Position numbers and translations under genes: made by a program | NCBI GenBank assembly: GCA_002269645.1 | Contig: NIVC01003208.1 | Coordinates: forward strand, 47,215-111,214 | DNA from: Macrostomum lignano | Lineage: Eukaryota | Reading direction: 5' to 3' | DNA length: 64,000 nucleotides | The notes under the pieces: generated by a model | What the model saw: only the letters and a program-made list of their open reading frames with translations | Told to the model about the DNA's origin: nothing | Databases searched by the model: none | In this document: positions 9,971 through 64,000 of the stretch, in pieces | Position numbering within the stretch: position 1 is the first letter of the stretch | How the letters are laid out: each line of letters opens with the position of its first letter

Positions 9971-11306
9971 CATGAACTACGTCCAGTCAGTCGCTCTTTA
10001 CGGTGCCAGCGCCTGGATGACCATCGCCTCGGAGAGCTGCTGCAGGGAAGTCGAAACCGTTCACAATTCGGCGGCCAGAGTTATCACCGGATGCTGCCGC
10101 TCTACGCCTACCAACGCTCTTCTTGCTGAAGCCGATATGCTCCCCCTCCCGACCCTCGCTAAGGCTGCGGCCGCCAAACTCTTCGAGAGGGCCGCTCGGC
10201 AACGCCAACCGACTCCTCTCTCCCGCCTCGCGAACAAGACACCGCCTCGACCGCGCCTTCGTGCCCACGGAAGACAGGGCGCCTTCCGTCAAGACTGGCG
10301 AGGTAAGGCTATCAACGCCTCCACGGACGCTGGCCTTATCGACGCCCCACGCGCCATGGATACCCTCGCCCCGCCACCCTGGTCTGATACGTCCAAAGTG
10401 TCCATCTCTTGGAACACGCGAAGACCAACTCGAGCAGGGAGGACCCGCCTCACATCCGTTAGACCAACTCCCGGCTGCGGACGTCGAGATCTGGACGGAT
10501 GGCTCGACCAAGGACGGCACCCACGGCGGCGGCGCCGGAGCCGTCATTGTCCAGAACCGGACCGTGGTGGACAGGATCACCGGCCCGGCCGGAATCATCA
10601 CCTCCTCCTTCCAGGCCGAAGAGGGAAGCCCTCCACCTCGGCCTTGCAGCGGTCCTTCGGATCTACTCTAACCACATACCCGACCGCATCAGGTGTCTCA
10701 CCGACTCCCAGGCGCTTCTCCGCTCCCTCCAGCAAGGCCCTGCGAAAGCGCGCTCTCCGGGCTGCTGTACGATCTGGGAACTCCTCGTCTCCATCTCGGC
10801 CTCCACGCACGTAGATCTTCAATGGGTGCCAGGACACGCTGGGCTCCGCCTCAACGACCTGGCTAAAATCAGCCTGGCCGCGGCTAAAGCGGCGATCGAT
10901 CGATCAGCGAAGTCCCAATTCACCGCGGTCTACCGAGCGGACCCGCACTGCATCACTCACCGCCTAACCACCGGGGACGACGCCAAAATCAAGAGATCTC
11001 TCCCCAGACATGACGAGATCTCCCTCGCCCAACTCCGAACTGGTCACTCCCCCTTGCTCCAGCAGTACCGTCACCGCATTGGCCAAGCCGACAGCCCTAC
11101 GTGCCCGCACTGCGGCGAAGCCGATGAGGACCTGGAGCACCTGATCAAGGTTTGCCGCTCTCACCAACAGGCCAGAGACCGGCACCTTGGCGAAAACCCG
11201 AGCCTCCAGACGCTCAGCAACATCAGCAGGCAGGTGATAGACTTCTTGAAGAAGGTCGGGGCTCAGACCCGCCCCCCGGACTGACCGGCCGGAAATAACA
11301 ACAACA
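9971..11306 (+). mobile_element. 5'-truncated non-LTR retrotransposon (I-group-like: RT C-terminus, RNase H, CCHC finger, (CAA)n tail)
   Basis: RNase H motifs EIWTDGS, SFQAE, TDSQAL and WVPGHAG; C-terminal CPHC..EDLEHLIKVC; tail AATAACAACAACAAC; 13-bp TSD ACAACGTGACTTA at 9958-9970 and 11307-11319. Reading frame is split across ORFs 9939, 10123 and 10499. Confidence 0.9.
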
Positions 11307-42985: not shown

Positions 42986-44282
42986 AGCAGCGATTGATTT
43001 GACTTGAAGCGGATGTTTGAGAAGCTGAGAACTCACTTGGCCCTTTATCTACTAACCCTCAGGTGCGCCCAAATCGAGTCGAAATATTTTGAGTCGAGTC
43101 GAGCCAGATTTTGCGAACGAACAGCTGAAGGATGAAACATCTTCAAAATATGCACTTTAGCTTTGCTGTCGTGCCGAATTCGATGTACTTTTATTTTTTC
43201 AGTTTTTTCTCTTAATAACAATCGCAGATTCTAAACTCTTAAGGCTTAAATCGATACGCTTATATGCTACTCTTTTCTAAGCAGTTGAAAATTTCGGTAA
43301 AAATGCTGTTAAAACTGTTGTAACTCTGTCGTTAGAGGAAATTTTGTCACACTAAATTAGTGTCTAATTAGTTAGACGATTAGGTTGAGGTTAGTTTTAG
43401 GGTTAGGCGTAGATTGCCTCTAGTTACAGGCCATAGTTATTAGCCTTTAGATTTAAGCGTCTTGATATAGTCTCTAGATATAGCTCGTTGCCTCTAGATA
43501 CAACCTCTATACATAGCCACTAGAGTTAGGCCTTTAGATCTATCTATCTGGCCTCTAGATATAGCCTAGATATCGGCTCTAGATATAGCCTTCAAATTTA
43601 GCCTCTAGTTATTATGGCCTCTAGTGGAGTGTTCAGTGCATTAGTATTGACGCAAATTAATGTCAACTAATATCTAAAAGTCTCTCATTAAAGTTGCCCT
43701 CTAAGATTTTCACCATGCCGCTCTTGTAATTGATTTTACAAGAAGTTCAACCGTTTCGAAATGGCGCGAGCAGGCCAGTCTTATCAAATAAAGTGAATCG
43801 CGCTGTCTGTCTCATTTTAACTCGTATGGCTCGTGCTTCGCCTTCTGTTCGCCCCAAGCGCAGTTGGCAGAGCCCTGCGGGACCAGGCTGATTGCTAATA
43901 TTGGCTTATCTGGGCCCACGTGGCTCTCCGAGTGCTCAGATTATTTTCACCTGCTCGATTCTCTTATCAACACGGACTGCTGGCGTGCAGCAGCAGCAGC
44001 TTTTGACTCTGCGCTTCGAACAGCGGCCCCTCCACCCCCGAGCCTCCCTGCTGATAAGCCAATCTGTAAACCCCGCCCTGCAGTCACGCTTTGCTCTGCT
44101 CACTCGAGCTCCACCCCGCTCTCCCTGATCTCCTACTTCTGCTGCTGTTTCTTAAAAACCGGAGACCCGCAAAAGGTGCGCAGTGTGCCGGGCAGCCCCT
44201 GCTAGCAACTGAGCTTAGAGTATCGCATTGTAACTCCAGTGACGGGCAGAGACCGAGAAAAAGCAGGCCTGCAAGAAAGCCA

Positions 44283-54037
<9,755 letters not shown>

Positions 54038-55301: not shown

Positions 55302-55390
55302 AGTAGTAGGGCGAATTATGATACTGCCGCACTAGCACTGGCGAGATAGGCGGCAATGCAAATGTACAGGGAAAAATACACTGCGGAGAT

Positions 55391-55672
55391 ATGAGCCCTA
55401 TCTCTGTGCATTGGGGACGGCTAAGCACTGCAGAGATATGAGCTCTATCTCTGTGCATTGGGGACGGCTAAGCACTGCAGAGATATGAGCTCTATCTCTG
55501 TGCATTGGGGACGGCTAAGCACTGCAGAGATATGAGCTCTATCTCTGTGCATTGGGGACGGCTAAGCACTGCAGAGATATGAGCTCTATCTCTGTGCATT
55601 GGGGACGGCTAAGCACTGCAGAGATATGAGCTCTATCTCTGTGCATTGGGGACGGCTAAGCACTGCGGAGAT
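55391..55672. repeat. 47-bp self-complementary subterminal array (6 copies)
   Basis: ATGAGCTCTATCTCTGTGCATTGGGGACGGCTAAGCACTGCAGAGAT, bracketed by a 39-bp direct repeat starting at 55318 and 55684. Confidence 0.9.
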
Positions 55673-56014
55673 AGAGGCGATTCATGATACTGCCGCACTA
55701 GCACTGGCGAGATAGGCGGCAAAAAGGATATAGGAAAAATACACTGCGGAGAGGATCCTATCTCTGTGCATTGGGAACGGCTAAACATTGCAGAGATAAG
55801 AGGGGTGGCCAATCTCTGTGCTCTGTGTTAGGGTAAGGTTATAAAGTTTTACAACTGCACAGAGGACGGCTGGTGTTGCTTACCTGGATAAGGGGACGGG
55901 GGGATACACTAATTACAGCCGGTAGCCTCTATAACGGTAAAGTAATTATTACCTGAGCATGGCTGGATGTTCATATACGATATGATAAGGAGAGGGCATG
56001 CATGTACAAATTAC

Positions 56015-56074
56015 TATATAAGCAGCCACGCAAGTACAAATAAACAAATAGACAAAAACAAAATTGTATAAAAG
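56015..56074 (+). promoter_or_regulatory. two TATA-box-like motifs upstream of the first element ORF
   Basis: TATATAA at 56015-56021 and TATAAAAG at 56067-56074; ATG at 56125. Confidence 0.45.
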
Positions 56075-56124: not shown

Positions 56125-57382
56125 ATGAAAACTTTTAAAAGTTGTCATAGAGACCTCTATGAGGTCTGTATAAGCTGCGAAGTGTGCCTGCTTGGAGGCG
56201 TGTCCCAAGACACCACGAGAATGAGAACTGTCTGGTCTCATGCTGGTTGGCATGCGACCAGTGCGGCACCGTCGAAGCTCTGCAGGAGGGAAAAATTCCA
56301 GCATATCATCGAGGACACAGGATCGTCAGCGATGACAAGAAAAAGCAAGAAAGTAACCGCTGGAAAGTAATCCGCGCCATCAAAAGAGCAACGAGAGAGA
56401 AAAGAAGATCCAGCAGAAAAAGGGAGCCAGCAGGAGTCTGCTATCAGCTCACTTGAGTCAAGTAATTGACTCTACATTGAAGAGGATGAGGCCAAGCGGG
56501 TCTTCAGCAGCTGCAGAATTTGAAGTTGAGCTGTCTGCTGGAGTCGAGGCTGCTGGAGTCGAGGCTGCTGGAGTCGAGGCTGCTGGAGTCGAGGCTGCTG
56601 GAGTCGAGGCCGCTGGAGTCGAGGCTGCTGGAGTCGAGGCTGCTGGAGTCGAGGCTGCTGGAGTCGAGGCCGCTGGAGTCGAGGCTGCTGGAGTCGAGGC
56701 TGCTGGAGTCGAGGCTGCTGGAGTCGAGGCTGCTGCTGTCATAAACTTCATAGAGGAAGATGTCCTGGATCAGTTCCTCAGGGAATTCAACGCTGGTCAG
56801 CAGCAGCAGCAACCTGTCTCTTCGGTTCCGGTGATTGCTGGAAAACAACTTCATCTAATTGAAGACGACCACGAAATGGAAATCCTAGAAGAGGAGGGCA
56901 GCGACAATGAGTCGCATAATGCAATCGTGCCACCTGCAGCTCCAGCCGCCCCAGCTGCTCTGGCCGCCCCAGCTGCTCTGGCCGCCCCAGCTGCTCTGTC
57001 CGCCCCAGCTGCTCTGGCCGCCCCAGCTGCTCTGTCCGCCCCAGCTGCTCTGGCCGCCCCAGCTGCTCCAGCCGCCCCAGCTGCTCTGGCCGCCCCAGCT
57101 GCTCTGGCCGCCCCAGCTGCTCCAGCCGCCCCAGCTGCTCTGGCCGCCCCAGCTGCTCCAGCCGCCCCAGCTGCTCTGGCCGCCCCAGCTGCTCTGGCCG
57201 CCCCAGCTGCTCTGGCTGCCCCAGCTGCTCCAGCCGCCCCAGCTGCAGCCTCTACAATTCCAGCTTCTCAATCCGAAACTCCACCCGTGCCAGCTGGAGT
57301 TGCCTTCTTTCTGCCTCCTGTCGGCGGGGCTGGGTACGAGGTAACGATTTTCGAAAATCGTATTAGAATTGTGCCGCTGTGA
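56125..57382 (+). CDS. element-borne protein with a Cys-rich (CxxC..CxxC) N-terminus, basic segment, (AGVEA)n and acidic/(APAA)n low-complexity region; reconstructed across two -1 shifts
   Basis: ORFs 56125, 56184 and 56453 join if one base is restored at ~56185 (CC) and ~56402 (A-run). The 56453-57382 part is an uninterrupted 309-codon frame. Confidence 0.45.
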
Positions 57383-58267
57383 CTAAGCAATTTTTGTACT
57401 TTTTTGCTTTCTGTGTGGAGTGAGAAATCTACCCATTTATTGCAATTATTGCTAAAACTTTATTTCAACTAGCTTTTTAAAGTTGAAAGTAGGTACATTA
57501 ATTAATGATTTGATCATCTCATAACTCTGTATTCGCTTCTAGGAATCTTGCTTATAAGTTTTCAGTTTTCATTTCCAAATTAGTTTTAAAAAAAGCTCGT
57601 AGCTCGTAGTGGCAACCAATATTTTTTTGGTATCCGAGGTAAAAAAAATTATTTGAAAAGTAGGTGAAACATTATACAGTTGAATTTAACAAATTAAAAT
57701 CAACATAACATACTTTCAATAAATTGGTGATGGTTTCGTATGCTTGGTGCGATTGATTAGGTATAATTTTCTTTCTACTGCTTTGACGCGGTGTTTCCTC
57801 ATTCTTTAATTATTGAACTTTTCAGCTATATTTCTGCTTCTAAACTCTCGTCTGTATTTTTAATTCATTGTTCCATGCATTGTTTATTGACTATGATTGC
57901 ACCATGTGAATTCGATAATTTTTTAAAAAAATATATACATATAATGTCAGCATTTTTCCACTCGGTGATTGGTTTGTTAATTAACTATTGGCTTCATTTT
58001 GCATTTTTTACCGATTGAGTCTGCGTAGGAGGCAAATAGAAACGAACTTTTACGAATAGGGATCAATAGAATATGCATGCAGAGAGCTAGCTTAAGGGAG
58101 AACCAAAAAAATATAACCAGCATCTACTAGCTTGTAAGTGTGGATATTGTACCAGTATTGCAGCAATAAAGACTTACGAAAAAGATTTCCAATATTCACT
58201 CCCAGTTGCTTATGACACTCAGTTGCAGCCAGTAAACACTGTCAGCTTTTAACTGCTTGCCTTTTCT

Positions 58268-61200
58268 ATGGTTGAGCACTCCTGGATGGAGCAGGAGAAT
58301 GACCACTCATGGATGGAGAATGACCACTCATGGATGGAGAATGACCACTCATGGATGGAGAATGACCACTCATGGATGGAGAATGGCCACTCGTGGATGG
58401 AGGATGACCACTCGTGGATCGAGTATGACCACCCTTGGGTGGACCATGACGTCAGCAGCGAGTCAGCAGCCAGCAGCGAGTCGGCAGCCAGCAGCGAGTC
58501 GGCAGCCAGCAGCGAGTCGGCAGCCAGCAGCGAGTCAGCAGCCAGCAGCGAGTCAGCAGCCAGCAGCGAGTCAGCAGCCAGCAGCGAGTCAGCAGCCAGC
58601 AGCGAGTCAGCAGCCAGCAGCGAGTCAGCAGCCAGCAGCGAGTCAGCAGCCAACAGCGAGTCGGTGACTGATGCACACCAAGGTAAGTGCCTTTATTTAT
58701 CCTTTTCAACTTACTTAAAAATTTTCTTATCAATGCGATGTATATTATGCAGTCTAAAATTTTAGTCCAAAGAATGGGAGAAGGGGAGATAAAAGACTTT
58801 ATACCGGTAGGGTTGTACATGTATGCTTGGGTACAGACGTTTAGTTTAGTATCTTTGATATTTGAAACTATAGGCAGCAAAAAACAAAAATATTATCCTA
58901 AAACCACAAACCAGGTTCAACAGTCAGCTTCAGCAGAGTTGCCCAAGCCTATGATCAATCACTGGAAATACTGAGGCTCAGATCGAGTCACCCAGACACG
59001 CTTCCGTCAGAATTTTTTGTCCAAGCTGGAGACAAAATTATTGAGGCAGTTCAGCAAAGAATTTCAAGACATCATTACAAAGTTCAGCTAAAGGCGAATA
59101 TTCGAATGGTCCGAATAAGAGATGGGGAGATGCTTGCCGAAGAGGACAGATGGATAAGCTGTAAAATGCAGGCCCTAGACCTAGGTGGTGAAGCAGGCCG
59201 TTTAAACAACTGGTTGATTGAGCAGGAGCAGGAGTTGGAGAGGATCTGTAGTATGATTAATACGAACGGCAGTGGCTGGACAATTAAACAAATTAATTTT
59301 CTAGACATCAACCTTGCCAGGTACAATCCAATTCGATTTCGCCAGGGCAGAGCCGTTAGATTCAATCTTCCTGCCAGTTTGAAGAACAAAAAGGCTGTTA
59401 TCAATCCACCGAGCACAGGCAAAGACTGTTTCCTGTACGCCTGTCTCGCTGCACTGCACAGCGCCGATCCGAAAGTTCAGAAATCGCCCAACAGAATATC
59501 CTCTTACGATGAATGGTTGCGTGAGCTGGACTTTGCAGAAATCTCCATGCCAGTGAGTGTCGCTGATATCGATCGCGTCGAGTCTAACAATCCAGGAATT
59601 TGCATTTCTGCGTTCTCTTGGCAGCAGGGCAGTGTGACTCTTCTCCGTCGCCGCAAGCATGAGTCAGATGACCGAAGACACCTCATGCTTTTGCTAGTTA
59701 AAGACAGCTACGGATCGGAGCACTGGTGTGCAATTACTAATTTTGACAGGTTAATGAACAGTCGTAATGGTCCCGCCATGAGGAAGTGGTGCACGAAATG
59801 TTTAACATCATTTTATAGCAACGAGAGGCTTCAAGAGCACAGGAACGAATGCAGCATTACTGCAGAAAATCCTGTCAAAGAAACGCTTCCAGTTCCAGGA
59901 CAGAATGAAATAAAGTTCCGAAACTGTCAAAACACTGTCAGTCCACCATTCGTTGCCTATGCCGACCTGGAAGCCATTTTGCGAGCGAACACAGACCCTG
60001 CTAACCTGATCTCAAAGCATGAACCATGTGCAGCAGCTTTTCTTGCAGTGCCTCGTGAAGGCATGACAGGACCTCCGCTTAGGCCAGAAGGAGACATGTA
60101 CAAGGTCTTTTGCAATGCGGACCCTGATGAGTGTATCCTTGGTTTTCTCAAATCTCTTGAAAGCCTGGCTCAGGATATATTTCACTGGAACCAGAAGCAT
60201 AGCCACCAGCCGGCTGACCGATCATCCGCGACCGTCATGGATGATTTCAATTCTGCTGAGGTATGTCACTACTGCAAGAAGAACTTTAAAAGTTCTACAG
60301 ATAAACATTTTGACCACGATCATTTAAATGGACAGTACAAAGGTGCAGCATGTCAAGAATGCAACCTGCGAGCACAGCTCCGACGCCGGTTTCTGCCCCT
60401 GGTTTTTCACAACTTAGGCGGCTACGACCTTCATCTTCTACTTTCCACTGCGCTTGGGAGCATGAAAAATTGGAAACTTAGTGTTGTTCCGCAATCATCC
60501 GAGCGATACTTGTCACTAAGGGCGGAATTCCCTGTTGCAAGTTACGTAAAGAACGGAAAAGTTGTGCCAATCATGTTTACAATTCAGTTCATCGACTCGC
60601 TCTGCTTTTTGAAGGGAAGTTTGTCCAATTTGTTTGCTAATCTTCCCGAAGCTGAATGCAAGCTGACAATGCAAATGCTTGAGTCAAGACCACATCTTTC
60701 AAGAGAGCTACTTCGAAAAAAAGGGATTTTCCCATATGATTACCTCACAGGATTTGAGATTCTCGAGCAGTCGGTTTTGCCACCTAAAGATGCTTTTTTT
60801 AATCGACTTTCCGATAGGGGAATTTCCGACGACGACTACAATAGAGCAAGAGCGGCATGGGCGGCATTTCAATGCAAAAGTTTGAAGGATTATATGCTCG
60901 CCTATCTTGAAATGGATGTAAGGCAGCTGGCTGACATTTTCGAGACATTCCGACAGGCCAGTCTGAAAGAGGACGGATTGGATCCGGTACACTACTTTAC
61001 TACTCCTGGTTTGTCTTACGACTCAGCTCTAAAGTCGACTGGAGTGGTTCTAGAGCAGCTGACTGATGCTGACATGTATCATCTGTTTGAGAAGGGAATA
61101 CGAGGAGGCATGTCCTTCATTAATGTGCATTGCGTCAAAGGTAATAATCCTAGCTTGCCAGGTTATGATGATCAGCAAGAGAGTGTAAGCCTCATGCCGA

Positions 61201-62560
61201 TCGATATGAACAACTTGTATGGCTTTGCCCTGTCGCTTCCGCTTCCATGCAGGGAATTCAGGTGGGTACCGGAACAGGAAATCCAGTTCTGGGACTCCAA
61301 TCGGTTTCTGTCACTCAATCCAGAAGCCGAGATCGCCTACCTTGTTCAACTCGATCTAGAATACCCAGCTGAGATTCACGATTCGACTCAGGAGTTACCG
61401 TTTGCACCTGAAAAATCAAAACCACAGCCAGATCAATTCTCGCCGTACATGGCCGAACTATGGAAAGAGATTGCTGAACAGCGAACTGGCAATGCTGAAG
61501 CTAAGTTTCAAGCAACGGAGAAGCTTCTACTCACCTGTACCGACAAGGATTCTTACGTAGTTCACAGCACCGTTTTAAGATTTTACCTGCAACACGGAAT
61601 GCGGATCAAGTGCGTCAAAAAAATGATTTCGTTCAAGCAGGAAAATATTTTCGCGCCGTACATTGCCAGCAACAATGAAAAAAGAGCTTTGGCAACTTCC
61701 GAGTTTGCTAAGGATTTTTACAAATTGAAAAACAATTCTCTCTTTGGAAAAACTATGGAGAACGTTCGAAAAAGATGCGATGTTCGAATTTGCACTAACC
61801 AGACTCAAGCAGAAACTTGCGCCTCTCGACCAAACTGTGCCGCATTCTCGATTATCAATGAGTCGTTGAGCATTTTTCAGCTCAAAAAAGATAAAGTCAC
61901 GCTTGACAAGGCCATTTTCGTTGGCAGGCAGTTCTCGATCTCTCTAAGATGGCCATGTACAGCCTACTATATGACAGGCTCCGACCGCTGTTCTGTCATT
62001 CAGACGGTTCCAGAGACATGATGCTTTGCGGAGGTGATACTGACTCATTTTTTCTAGCTTTCAAGAATCATGATTTAACATCGGAGGTAATCCGAAGCTT
62101 AGAGAGGAAAAAATACTTGACACATCCAACTATTCTCGAGACCATCCGCATTTCTCTGAAGAGTTAAAAGGAAAGCTGGGCTGCGTTAAAGATGAATCTG
62201 CTGGTGGAATTTACCAGGAGTGGATTCTTTTGCGTCCAAAACTTTATTCGTTTCTCCCTGCCGAGAATTCGAGTGCAAAGATCAAGAAAACTGCCAAAGG
62301 CGTGAAGCAGTCAGTAGTAAGACAGCAAATTTCGCATGCGAACTATGTCGACGCGTTCGAGTCCAAGCAAGAGCAGATGGTTGCCATGACAGCGATTGTT
62401 TCCAAGAAACACGAAATCTTCACGTCGGTCATGGAGAAAGAAGCCTATCGGTGTGGGAGGATAAGCGAGTGTGGCTTAGCAGTAATCGAAGCCTGCCTAC
62501 GGACACTATGCGCTGACGCCCGCATCCCACGATCAGCTGAAGCGCATCCGACTGGTCTAG
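58268..62560 (+). CDS. protein-primed family B DNA polymerase (DNA_pol_B_2, Polinton type) with endonuclease VII insertion; probably spliced
   Basis: Motifs AYADLEA (ExoI), CHYC..DHDHLNGQYKGAACQECN (EndoVII), FHNLGGYDLH (ExoII), YLEMDV (ExoIII), IDMNNLYG (A), KLKNNSLFGK (B), GGDTDS (C), LRPKLY and TAKGV. Probable exon 58268-58682, intron 58683-58923. Four -1 shifts at ~61925, 62110, 62438 and 62498 restore FVGQAVLDLSK..LDTSNY..KRSLSVWEDKR..LPYGHY to TAG 62560. Confidence 0.9.
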
Positions 62561-63141
62561 TGCGGGTGTTTAACAGACTGTTTAGTACTTTTTCTTGCTT
62601 TTAGAGTTGTTAAATTGCCAAATTCTGTTTTAAATGTAGTGACTTGCATGTAGTAACTTTTACAAATTTGTATGCTTGGCTAATTGCGCTAGATTTAGCT
62701 TGTCAATTTGTTTTTGCGGCGTGAAATATTGATATCAATTTAAGTTTTACTTTTTATAAAGCTGTGGCAAGTGCGCTCATACAATATTAATTCATTTTTG
62801 TTTGCTTTGTGTACTACTTGTTTAAAATGTGTTTTTGGTTTTTATCTGACATAAATTGTTCCTGTAAATTCAATCAGCGTTTTAATCATATTTTCTCTAT
62901 CACTTTTCTATTTCTCTTCTCTCGGTGCACATCGTTTGTTATAACGATGGTAGTATTGTTTACTTTCGGATTTGATATGCGTTTTGCGATACTTTTGGTG
63001 ATGGGCTAAATACGTTTTTGAAGTGTTCCATAGCTGTCTGCCTGGGAAAATGAATGTAAAGAATACTAAGTTTATCCTTTTATTCACTTTTCACTAATCA
63101 TTGAAATATTTGCGGCAAATTGCTTGACTTGACTTTTATTT

Positions 63142-63713
63142 TTATTCAATGGAAAGAACTACATTGAGTAGACGCATGCTATCGGTATGCAACTGATTCA
63201 AGGACCGAGCTCCACTGAGAACAAAAGAGCCGCTGTGAAAAAGCAGACATTTACAAAAGTTTAAATTGAAAATTAAAGCAGAAAAGGATTCTGGTTCATA
63301 TTCGCGTTTGGGATAATTGATTTTAACATTAATAAGGAAAGTGCGGAATGAACTGGGAGCTGTCCATGAGCAGTAATAGTTTTAATTCGAACAAAATTTT
63401 TGTTTGATGAGGCAGCAGTTGACCGGCACTCTCCGATGCAGCATAGCCACGAAGCGACGGGCAGCCCTTTTGGCGTCTGCGTGGGTCTTGGCACCGCAGA
63501 TGCTCAGTTGCCCAGTAGGGTAGAGTAGGAGAGTCACTCTGGGACTTCGCATCCGCTTGATGAGCACCCGGGCCAGACGGGCCGGTAGATCACATGAGCC
63601 ATGCTGAGAGCCAGTTCCCGTAGAGGCAGCTGAGCGCCCCTGCCACCATCCAGTCTCAGATCTACTCCGCCAACCAGATTGGTCACTCTTAGGGCTGTAG
63701 CTGGTGGGCTCAT
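63142..63713 (-). CDS. divergent TATA-binding-protein-like protein (two TBP repeats, no N-terminal extension, intronless), split by three frameshifts
   Basis: Repeat 1: LRVTNLVGGVDL..HVIYRPVWPGVLIKRMRSPRVTLLLYPTGQLSICGAKTHADAKRAARRFVAML. Repeat 2: VRIKTITAHGQL..NAEYEPESFSALIFNLNFCKCLLFHSGSFVLSGARSLNQL..VLSIE*. Both match the TBP pattern NIV..YNP/YEPE.F..R.P....LIF.SGK....GAK. AATAAA overlaps the stop. Confidence 0.85.
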
Positions 63714-64000
63714 TTCGATCGTCAACTTCTTCACCAAATCTGCTTCTGCCAACTTTACTGCTCGTGTGCCACGGACACTGCTCGCTTCTTAAGTTGATGC
63801 AGACTTTGGCTTAAGCCAACTGTAGTGCAGGCAACGAATTTCTCACTGCACAGCCAGTATCTGAATCTTCAGTCGAGGGTGCTCCCAAATCTTCTAGTTA
63901 TAAACGCTGTCTTCCAAGCAGCTCAGTCAGAAAAGACTTCCTTTCCCCATTTGACCAGATCGACCACTGGCAATGCTCAGAATGTCTTCCGCCAGTTCCA

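What the first reader, a model, noticed from the sequence alone, without database searches (positions are those of the whole stretch)
63142..63713. A Polinton-like element carries its own divergent TATA-binding protein
Seen in sequence: minus-strand frames join into a ~190-aa intronless two-repeat TBP core lying convergent to the pPolB gene. Compared with yeast TBP numbering from memory, the TFIIB-binding stirrup YEPE (E186/E188) and repeat-2 F190/F207 are kept. Repeat-1 F99 and F116 become W and Y, N69 is kept and N159 becomes T, so DNA preference may be altered. Established: TBP homologues occur in nucleocytoviruses, mirusviruses and nimaviruses; I do not know TBP as a standard Polinton/adintovirus gene. 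Inference: the element may redirect host Pol II/TFIIB to its own promoters or act as a TBP decoy, which would be a self-contained transcription-initiation module in a virus-like transposon.
Basis: partly seen in the sequence, partly recalled or inferred. Interest (0 to 1): 0.92.

Follow-up and report, generated by a model that had tools for sequence, protein, structure and literature searches.

The report
Polinton TBP with its own promoter
A virus-like jumping gene in a flatworm carries its own remodelled TATA-binding protein, and most of its capsid, packaging and integration genes sit behind a shared non-standard TATA-like box, which suggests that the element switches on its own late genes much as some herpesviruses do.

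Summary
The window ends inside a Polinton (terminal repeat from 55302, pPolB, convergent TBP at 63142-63713). The window copy has frameshifts, probably assembly errors: 17 of 20 near-identical copies have one 190-aa frame that folds as TBP (pLDDT 89, TM 0.82). Other copies show a complete 16.5-18 kb element with integrase, capsid, protease, ATPase, PC4 and 6-bp target duplications. The TBP is under purifying selection across eight subfamilies, and a second family (39% identical) has it too. All 16 relatives keep the TFIIB stirrup but share a rewritten DNA-binding face. New here: a strand-specific box, [CT][TA]TAAGAA, precedes 8 of 11 genes of the capsid arm, is kept in a second subfamily, and its core recurs in the distant family. 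Best reading (0.55): a late-gene initiation factor reading this box, like herpesvirus vTBP with TATT. Binding is untested. Subfamilies also swap arms at a junction inside the TBP gene. A published figure legend labels a TBP in a related virus, and this scan noted Polinton TBPs in two other genomes; I found no paper describing the gene or box.

The parts
63142..63713 (-). TBP gene of the element: 190 aa, two repeats, no N-terminal extension, no intron; this copy is frameshifted near 63569, 63422, 63397, 63303
   Evidence: Pfam; uninterrupted in 17 of 20 copies; fold
63786..63793 (-). CTTAAGAA box, 80 nt upstream of the TBP start; the window's only copy of this word on the minus strand
   Evidence: kept in 11 of 11 family-1 loci examined
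63382..64000 (-). 3' part of the upstream gene ('EXO', 283 aa in other copies; nuclease-like label recalled, no database hit) whose frame runs over TBP repeat 1 for about 110 codons and stops where repeat 2 begins; cut by the contig end
   Evidence: no hit
63360..63400 (-). Approximate junction (TBP codons about 105-117) at which subfamilies change from 95-98% to 57-74% DNA identity: arm exchange inside the TBP gene
63135..63146 (-). Two AATAAA words at and just after the TBP stop, candidate poly(A) signals
   Evidence: sequence shows it directly; function inferred
58902..62560 (+). [quoted passage not shown]
   Evidence: PF03175 E 2.1e-12, PF02945 E 9.2e-6; end
58253..58682 (+). Repeat-rich upstream exon apparently spliced to pPolB (GT-AG joint 58680 to 58913)
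   Evidence: one contig in 1 of 4 runs
56357..57382 (+). Repeat-rich open frame of unknown function on the pPolB arm
   Evidence: no hit over cut-off
56015..56074 (+). Two canonical TATA boxes (TATATAAG at 56015, TATAAAAG at 56067) at the start of the pPolB arm; candidate host-TBP (early) promoter
   Evidence: role inferred
55302..55673 (+). Left terminal inverted repeat, begins AGTAGTAGG, at least 372 bp with an inner 47-bp tandem array
   Evidence: matches the far end of 4 of 4 other copies; flank pairs

Best explanation
The gene is a fixed, old core gene of a complete Polinton (integrating double-jelly-roll virus-like element) of a macrostomid flatworm, and works as the element's own late-gene initiation factor. 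Steps: (1) SHOWN: an intact two-repeat TBP under purifying selection in two distant families. (2) SHOWN: the TFIIB stirrup is invariant while the DNA-facing residues are changed alike in all relatives. (3) SHOWN: a strand-specific box, [CT][TA]TAAGAA, lies shortly upstream of integrase, putative minor capsid, basic core-like, major capsid, ATPase, ORF112, EXO and TBP genes, while the two terminal promoters (PC4 gene, pPolB arm) carry canonical TATA boxes. (4) INFERRED: host TBP fires the canonical boxes first (PC4, pPolB arm; the TBP gene itself in family 2, the EXO-TBP unit in family 1, whose box overlaps TATATAAG or TATTTAAG). (5) INFERRED: the element's TBP then binds the TAAGAA box, recruits host TFIIB and Pol II through E186/E188, and turns on the integration and virion genes, with positive feedback on its own gene in family 1.
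For: Fold: pLDDT 88.9, best Foldseek hits all TBPs, TM 0.78-0.83. Selection: pN/pS 0.08-0.31 in repeat 1 for 27 of 28 pairs (one pair 0.75 on 6 changes) and 0.19-0.48 in repeat 2 with saturated silent sites. Residues in 16 of 16 element-type rows: kept N69, V71, L114, E186, P187, E188, F190, F207; changed F116Y, V122S/T, T124C, Q158K, N159T, V161T/S, V203K; P191 lost in 16 of 16. PMC12529657 (passages) says the P191 equivalent favours T at box position 1, and the box mostly has C there; PMC1636458 places V203/L205/I194 at position 2, where the box mostly has T. Box: arm A 8 on the coding strand, 0 on the other, all within 150 nt of 8 of 11 starts; arm B (74% DNA identity) 7 against 1, before 7 of 11 starts. 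Chance that any 8-mer does as well in A: P 0.003; same word tested in B: P 0.0016. 7 of 7 alignable sites kept at 7/8 or 8/8, against 37% of all 8-mers; the eighth lies in unalignable DNA and is present in both. Core TAAGAA is kept before EXO in 11 of 11 loci although flanks differ. Distant family (capsid 41%, ATPase 42%, TBP 39%): TAAGAA 6 against 0 by strand (1.1 expected), before 5 of 10 genes, P 0.016 with the word fixed beforehand; its TBP gene has a canonical CTATAAAAG about 54 nt upstream. Genome background of CTTAAGAA: 11,223 per strand in 764 Mb, against 6 in 7.6 kb.
Against: No binding, start-site or knock-down data. Box-to-ATG distance is spread from 12 to 149 nt; 12 nt before the ATPase in arm A and before the capsid-minor gene in family 2 is too short for a TATA-like site unless a later ATG or the second box is used. 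Protease, ORF230 and PC4 genes lack the box in both subfamilies. In family 1 the TBP gene has the box and no canonical TATA within 120 nt, and the EXO frame covers its AUG, so first expression is unexplained. PMC1636458 says wild-type TBP can take a G at position 6, so the TATAAGAA form common in family 2 may be readable by host TBP. Absence from the pPolB arm is weak (0 seen, 1.6 expected). Arms A and B are relatives, not independent tests. Only 7 of the 16 DNA-contact positions in the table of PMC12529657 are identical and the F99 wedge is replaced, which could mean weak DNA binding rather than new specificity. PMC4893493 notes that EBV BcRF1 binds TATA and TATT alike in vitro and needs partners.
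Confidence: 0.55

Rival explanations
1. Generic booster: the protein is a TAF-free spare TBP that raises initiation at any TATA-like site of the element; the TAAGAA box is a weak TATA variant or an initiator-like motif read by host TBP or by another element protein (PC4-like, EXO, ORF230).
For: Wild-type TBP can take G at position 6 (PMC1636458); the box overlaps canonical TATATAAG before EXO in arm A; spacing to ATG is loose; the core resembles the baculovirus late TAAG start motif (recalled).
Against: A generic booster would not need the same seven substitutions on the DNA face in 16 of 16 relatives; the common form CTTAAGAA departs from TATA at positions 1 and 2, where the changed residues P191 and V203 act.
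Confidence: 0.22
2. Decoy or host modulator: the protein titrates TFIIB (or TFIIA, NC2, Mot1, Brf1) or sits on host promoters to dampen host or defence transcription, and the box has another cause.
For: The stirrup is invariant while the F99 wedge, N159 and P191 are changed, the pattern expected if the protein surface matters more than TATA binding.
Against: The substituted DNA-face residues are themselves invariant across families 39% identical, and F190, F207, N69, V71 are kept, which means constraint on the concave face; a decoy does not explain a box confined to the element's own genes; a strong inhibitor in more than 100 germline copies would be costly (inference).
Confidence: 0.12
3. Non-transcriptional or split role: the saddle bends DNA for packaging, replication or integration, or a frameshift at the EXO stop makes an EXO-repeat 2 fusion (a nuclease fold with one TBP domain, as in RNase HIII; recalled).
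For: The EXO frame ends at the first strand of repeat 2 in 10 of 11 family-1 loci, and repeat 2 travels with the pPolB arm.
Against: Repeat 1 is under purifying selection in the TBP frame and not in the EXO frame (ratios 0.96-4.3); in family 2 the EXO stop lies elsewhere (codon 130 or 91); the TFIIB stirrup is kept.
Confidence: 0.07
4. A captured host TBP retrocopy, pseudogene or assembly artefact without function.
For: The window copy is frameshifted; 3 of 20 copies are broken.
Against: Only 29% identical to host TBP; grouping with host TBP rejected, p-AU 0.03; purifying selection; two families, each multi-copy.
Confidence: 0.02

Closest known systems
Beta/gamma-herpesvirus vTBP (EBV BcRF1, KSHV ORF24, CMV UL87) with the TATT late promoter (PMC12529657, PMC4893493; passages read)
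   Same: A viral TBP-fold protein with a more polar DNA face (V122 and V161 positions polar in both) paired with a variant TATA box before structural genes; early genes keep canonical TATA.
   Different: ORF24 is a large multidomain protein that lacks the TFIIB acidic residues, binds Pol II itself and needs five viral partners; it keeps all four phenylalanines and P191. This protein is a bare 190-aa core with clear Pfam similarity, keeps E186/E188, loses P191 and F99, and no partner complex is evident. Binding is shown there, only inferred here.
Polintons / Mavericks / adintoviruses (PMC4028283, PMC10748475, PMC8502044)
   Same: Size, terminal repeats, 6-bp target duplication, pPolB, integrase, protease, ATPase, double-jelly-roll capsid.
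   Different: TBP and PC4 are not mentioned as Polinton genes in the six Polinton papers searched by term, except the label 'TBP' in the Fig. 5 legend of PMC8502044 (which genome carries it could not be seen). The transcription factor reported in some polintoviruses is VLTF3 (PMC11131425).
Cellular TBP / TRF2 and archaeal TBP (PF00352)
   Same: Two-repeat saddle (TM 0.82 to 1mp9), stirrup EPE, N69, F190, F207.
   Different: 24-27% identity; no N-terminal tail; rewritten DNA face; forms its own clade among short unnamed divergent TBPs. The host has its own canonical TBP and a TRF2-like gene, each on 3 contigs.
TBP homologues of large DNA viruses (nucleocytoviruses, nimavirus wsv303, mirusviruses, halovirus HJTV-2)
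   Same: Virus-encoded TBP fold (mirusviruses seen as a search listing only).
   Different: Structural matches are weaker than to cellular TBP (TM at most 0.73, identity at most 20%); those viruses are several times larger, and many carry their own RNA polymerase (recalled).

Membership tests
Polinton/Maverick | Protein-primed family B polymerase | tested here: met
   PF03175 E 2.1e-12
Polinton/Maverick | Retroviral-type (rve) integrase | tested here: met
   PF00665 E 1.7e-13 in a sister copy; not in the window, which ends at the contig end
Polinton/Maverick | Adenovirus-like protease | tested here: met
   PF00770 22.6 bits against cut-off 21.3
Polinton/Maverick | A32/FtsK-like packaging ATPase | tested here: inconclusive
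   P-loop protein at the expected place; Pox_A32 only E 0.034, under cut-off
Polinton/Maverick | Double-jelly-roll major capsid protein | tested here: met
   ESM Atlas score 0.98 to PF21738 DJR-like clusters (recognition value under the tool's 2300 mark, so a lead of medium weight); no direct Pfam or PDB sequence hit
Polinton/Maverick | Minor capsid (penton, PX) | tested here: inconclusive
   269-aa gene one gene away from the capsid gene, the position given in PMC4028283; no Pfam hit
Polinton/Maverick | Terminal inverted repeats 100-1500 bp, element 13-25 kb (PMC10748475) | tested here: met
   At least 372 bp; 6 contigs with both ends around a TBP copy, 16.5-17.9 kb
Polinton/Maverick | 5-8 bp target site duplication | tested here: met
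   Perfect 6-bp duplication in 3 of 6 complete copies; none in the other 3, two of which share one right flank
TBP family (PF00352) | Two-repeat saddle fold | tested here: met
TBP family (PF00352) | Four intercalating phenylalanines | tested here: not met
   F190, F207 kept; F116 is Y; F99 is P (or W by a shifted register)
TBP family (PF00352) | Acidic TFIIB stirrup E186/E188 | tested here: met
   16 of 16 rows
TBP family (PF00352) | Binds and bends a TATA-type site; recruits TFIIB | not testable with these tools
   No DNA-binding tool; the complex predictor was not available
Orthologue of host TBP (recent capture) | Groups with host or animal TBP | tested here: not met
   29% identity; p-AU 0.030 and 0.028 under LG+G4 on 50 of 173 rows, long-branch caveat
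TRF2/TBPL1 | Groups with the host TRF2-like protein | tested here: inconclusive
   Free tree separates them, but holding them together is not rejected, p-AU 0.27
Herpesvirus vTBP (ORF24/BcRF1/UL87) | Large protein with Pol II-binding and extra DNA-binding domains, no TFIIB stirrup, six-member viral complex | tested here: not met
   190-aa core with stirrup; works like it at most, is not a member
Herpesvirus vTBP (working likeness) | Variant TATA box before structural genes, canonical TATA before early genes | tested here: met
   sequence pattern only

The most novel reading that the evidence does not exclude
Animal Polintons run a true early-to-late programme with a one-protein switch: a bare TBP whose DNA face has been re-specified to read a private box, while host TFIIB and Pol II are still used. 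Each Polinton lineage would carry its own matched TBP-box pair (TAAGAA here; an unchecked note of this scan reports TATAAAC in another genome), a natural series of altered-specificity TBPs. The two halves of the saddle are exchanged between subfamilies at a fixed junction, so the half that travels with the capsid arm stays matched to that arm's promoters.
Probability: 0.38. Interest if true: 0.88.

Novelty: new variant of a known kind. Interest (0 to 1): 0.74.

Why it matters
How Polintons control their genes, and whether integrated animal copies have a staged viral cycle, is open; PMC8097293 says their particles have not been seen (abstract). A conserved element-encoded TBP with a matching box makes the question directly testable with one small protein and one 8-bp word. 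It would be the smallest known virus-like element with its own initiation factor, an independent origin of the herpesvirus late-promoter strategy that, unlike it, seems to keep TFIIB. It would also give natural altered-specificity TBPs, of use for understanding TATA recognition. For genome annotation: a flatworm with well over 100 PF00352 hits has two host genes, the rest being element copies.

Tried and rejected
Expression: no RNA holder listed on record; 20 of 24 listed runs hold the stretch but RNA is only a guess. Contigs of 4 runs cover the TBP gene, which cannot tell RNA from DNA or rank genes; only the one GT-AG joint in pPolB in run X1 points to spliced RNA. Context of relatives outside this genome: 4 scans of viral contigs (none; one search gave 14 loci, none of which matched Polinton genes) and 1 of metagenomes (13 loci at 24-39% identity; the 6 I read held archaeal, protist or unrelated genes). 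So the neighbours of P0004-P0006, P0011, P0016, P0161, P0162 and of the short divergent TBPs are unknown (all cluster look-ups gave no organism). Identity of the EXO protein: no hit in Pfam, PHROGs or PDB, and its single-sequence fold failed (pLDDT 35). Origin of the TBP: unresolved. Rejected: host-gene or pseudogene reading; the TAC array at 49916-50850 as an element end (it lies inside the host aminopeptidase gene); canonical TATA at 56015-56074 as the special target; the overlap frame as a conserved protein (its amino acids are not conserved). In one search the printed arm-A null used a threshold of 6 against an observed 5; one search repeats it correctly and is the one cited. Supplements: the one file of PMC8502044 was cut when stored and gave 0 hits; figures are not held; preprint supplements are closed; Repbase-type annotations were not searchable. 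Any of these may name a Polinton TBP.

Full report
THE OBSERVATION. The minus strand at 63142-63713 encodes a two-repeat TBP in pieces. Two pieces pass the PF00352 cut-off alone. The window is the last 64 kb of its contig. The same 700 bases match 40 of 40 scored places at 96-100% (146 candidates). Of the 20 best, 17 hold one uninterrupted 190-aa frame; the window copy and two others do not. The 17 frames are only 2 distinct sequences, at most 4 bases apart, so this subfamily spread recently. The window copy differs from a sister by 16 gap openings and 4 mismatches in 2.4 kb, and contigs of all 4 runs laid differ from it at the break sites. The breaks are therefore probably consensus errors. 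An uninterrupted natural copy (P0002) scores PF00352 E 7.9e-25, folds at pLDDT 88.9 and matches TBP structures at TM about 0.8. A 99% identical protein is labelled Macrostomum lignano by NCBI, and so is the host TFIIB; the host is taken to be this flatworm.

THE ELEMENT. The window holds the left arm: terminus AGTAGTAGG at 55302, a repeat of at least 372 bp that matches the far end of 4 of 4 other copies, two canonical TATA boxes, and pPolB (PF03175). Other copies show the right arm, all on the TBP strand: PC4-like (PF02229, E 5e-8), integrase (PF00665), a 269-aa putative penton, a basic 125-aa protein, a double-jelly-roll capsid, protease (PF00770), P-loop ATPase, ORF112, ORF230, 'EXO' and TBP. 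Six contigs have both ends around a TBP copy, 16.5-17.9 kb apart; 3 of 6 have a perfect 6-bp duplication. This meets the description in PMC4028283 and PMC10748475 (passages). TBP sits at the centre, where the two arms converge. The host has its own TBP and a TRF2-like gene, each on 3 contigs (12 of 150 scored PF00352 rows); the other rows look element-type, and I read 26 of those loci.

THE GENE IS OLD AND SELECTED. Eight subfamily representatives give pN/pS 0.08-0.31 in repeat 1 (27 of 28 pairs) and 0.19-0.48 in repeat 2, where silent sites are saturated. A second family, 39% identical in TBP, has about two dozen near full-length matches at 81-100% and the same gene order (integrase 56%, capsid 41%, ATPase 42%). 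Relatives at 72-76%, 52% and 31-36% exist in unnamed assemblies. All form one clade (support 95-96) among short, unnamed, divergent TBPs, apart from host TBP, TRF2 and archaea (the second tree uses 50 of 173 rows). A recent capture of host TBP is rejected (p-AU 0.03); a TRF2 link is not (0.27). The origin is unresolved.

THE BINDING SURFACES. Yeast numbers were carried over through host TBP. In 16 of 16 element-type rows the stirrup E186-P187-E188 and F190, F207, N69, V71, L114 are kept; F116 is Y, V122 S/T, T124 C, Q158 K, N159 T, V161 T/S, V203 K, and P191 is never kept. Of the 16 DNA-contact positions tabulated in PMC12529657, 7 are identical. The changes are fixed across 39% divergence, so the face is re-specified, not decayed (inference). 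That paper says the P191 equivalent favours T at box position 1; PMC1636458 puts V203, L205 and I194 at position 2 and notes that wild-type TBP tolerates G at 3 and 6. The link of N159/V161 to the central bases and of V122 to position 6 is recalled from crystal structures.

THE BOX. CTTAAGAA occurs 6 times in 7.6 kb of arm A, each within 120 nt of a start codon; the genome rate is one per 68 kb per strand. The wider form [CT][TA]TAAGAA occurs 8 times on the coding strand and never on the other, before 8 of 11 genes; in arm B (proteins 52-83% identical) 7 against 1, before 7 of 11 genes. PC4, protease and ORF230 lack it in both; PC4 has TATATAAG in both. With random anchors, the best 8-mer does as well in A with P 0.003; the same word in B has P 0.0016, though A and B are 74% identical. 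Seven of 7 alignable sites are kept at 7/8 or better against 37% for all 8-mers, and the integrase site is present in both arms in unalignable DNA. In the distant family the core TAAGAA occurs 6 against 0 by strand (1.1 expected), before the penton-like, basic, capsid, ORF112 and EXO genes (5 of 10, P 0.016), four of them at matching places; there the TBP gene has a canonical CTATAAAAG. The pPolB arm has none on its coding strand (1.6 expected; weak). Against a simple promoter reading: distances run from 12 to 149 nt, several sites lie in the coding end of the previous gene, the family-1 TBP gene has the box itself, and TATAAGAA may be host-readable.

TWO FURTHER FEATURES. First, subfamilies are mosaics with the junction inside TBP. 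Five subfamilies are 95-98% identical up to about codon 105-117 and 57-74% after it, with pPolB tails 46-54% identical where held. Trees of the two halves disagree: two subfamilies with the A-type left half group with B types in repeat 2 (support 100/99). Polymerase displacement by recombination is reported for nematode Polintons (PMC10748475); a junction inside a TBP gene I did not find. Second, the EXO frame runs over repeat 1 and stops at the start of repeat 2 in 10 of 11 family-1 loci; it is open in the same phase in one of two family-2 copies to codon 130. Chance of no stop under synonymous shuffling is 0.003-0.017 in family 1 and 0.12 in family 2; its amino acids are not conserved. It may damp TBP translation from EXO messages or shorten a 3' UTR; this is unexplained.

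MECHANISM AND RIVALS. Best reading (0.55): host TBP fires canonical boxes early; the element TBP then reads the TAAGAA box and, through the kept stirrup, brings host TFIIB and Pol II to integration and virion genes. Rivals: generic booster with a box read by another factor (0.22), decoy (0.12), non-transcriptional or fusion role (0.07), dead gene (0.02). No binding or start-site data exist here; the complex predictor was not available; expression evidence is one spliced joint in pPolB in one run whose RNA status is a guess.

WHAT IS KNOWN. The working analogue is the herpesvirus vTBP with TATT (PMC12529657, PMC4893493; passages), but this protein is no member of that family. TBP in large DNA viruses is known. 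For Polintons, PMC8502044 (section 10 read) and its preprint (passages) list 'TBP' only as a figure label; PMC10748475, PMC8097293, PMC11161782, PMC11131425 and 10.64898/2026.06.19.733378 have no 'TBP' or 'TATA' in the main text. Ten searches found no paper on a Polinton TBP or its promoter; subscription papers, Repbase and figures were not covered. This scan noted Polinton TBPs in two other genomes (unchecked).

VERDICT. Real, intact, selected and part of a complete Polinton; new variant of a known kind; interest 0.74.

Noticed in passing
window 44070-54036 (+): Host aminopeptidase N (Peptidase M1) gene in many exons separated by minisatellite introns; the Polinton is inserted about 1.3 kb after its stop, just behind a 34-bp tandem array.
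   Followed up: partly
L054:7331-8101 (-), L090:6688-7449 (-), L063:1509-2201 (-): PC4/Sub1-like gene in both families (PF02229 E 5e-8, 4e-6, 0.016). First gene of the capsid arm with a canonical TATA in family 1; convergent to TBP in family 2. Could be a coactivator for the TBP or the single-strand binding protein for replication.
   Followed up: partly
window 63360-63400; L002, L036, L037, L057-L064: Arm-exchange junction inside the TBP gene, near the midpoint of the element (about 8.1 and 8.4 kb from the ends); GC falls from about 60% to 30-45% at the same place.
   Followed up: yes
window 63382-63713 (-): Upstream frame kept open over TBP repeat 1 for about 110 codons without amino-acid conservation; its stop lies within an ATTAAA word in most family-1 subfamilies.
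   Followed up: partly
window 60255-60371 (+), pPolB residues 452-490: Endonuclease VII-like stretch inside pPolB (PF02945, 25.9 bits over cut-off 23.6).
   Followed up: no
L095:212-772 (+), L091:2022-2582 (+): Family 2 has a 187-aa Cys/His-rich gene weakly like the N-terminal part of pPolB (E 1e-6) behind a canonical TATA, upstream of the integrase.
   Followed up: no
L091:6099-7243: A second, retrotransposon-like integrase fragment interrupts this family-2 copy between ORF230 and EXO; absent from L095 (label from the look of the sequence).
   Followed up: no
proteins P0085, P0092, P0082, P0116, P0042, P0041, P0146: A radiation of short (169-189 aa) unnamed TBPs on 1-13 kb contigs; several share T at the N159 site, and P0085/P0092 also Y at F116. 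Possibly TBPs of other Polintons; context not found.
   Followed up: partly
L021-L032: Host TBP and the TRF2-like gene are both intronless over the core and each present on 3 contigs.
   Followed up: no
window 10463-11284 (+): Weak RNase H and zf-RVT hits, probably a non-LTR retrotransposon remnant.
   Followed up: no
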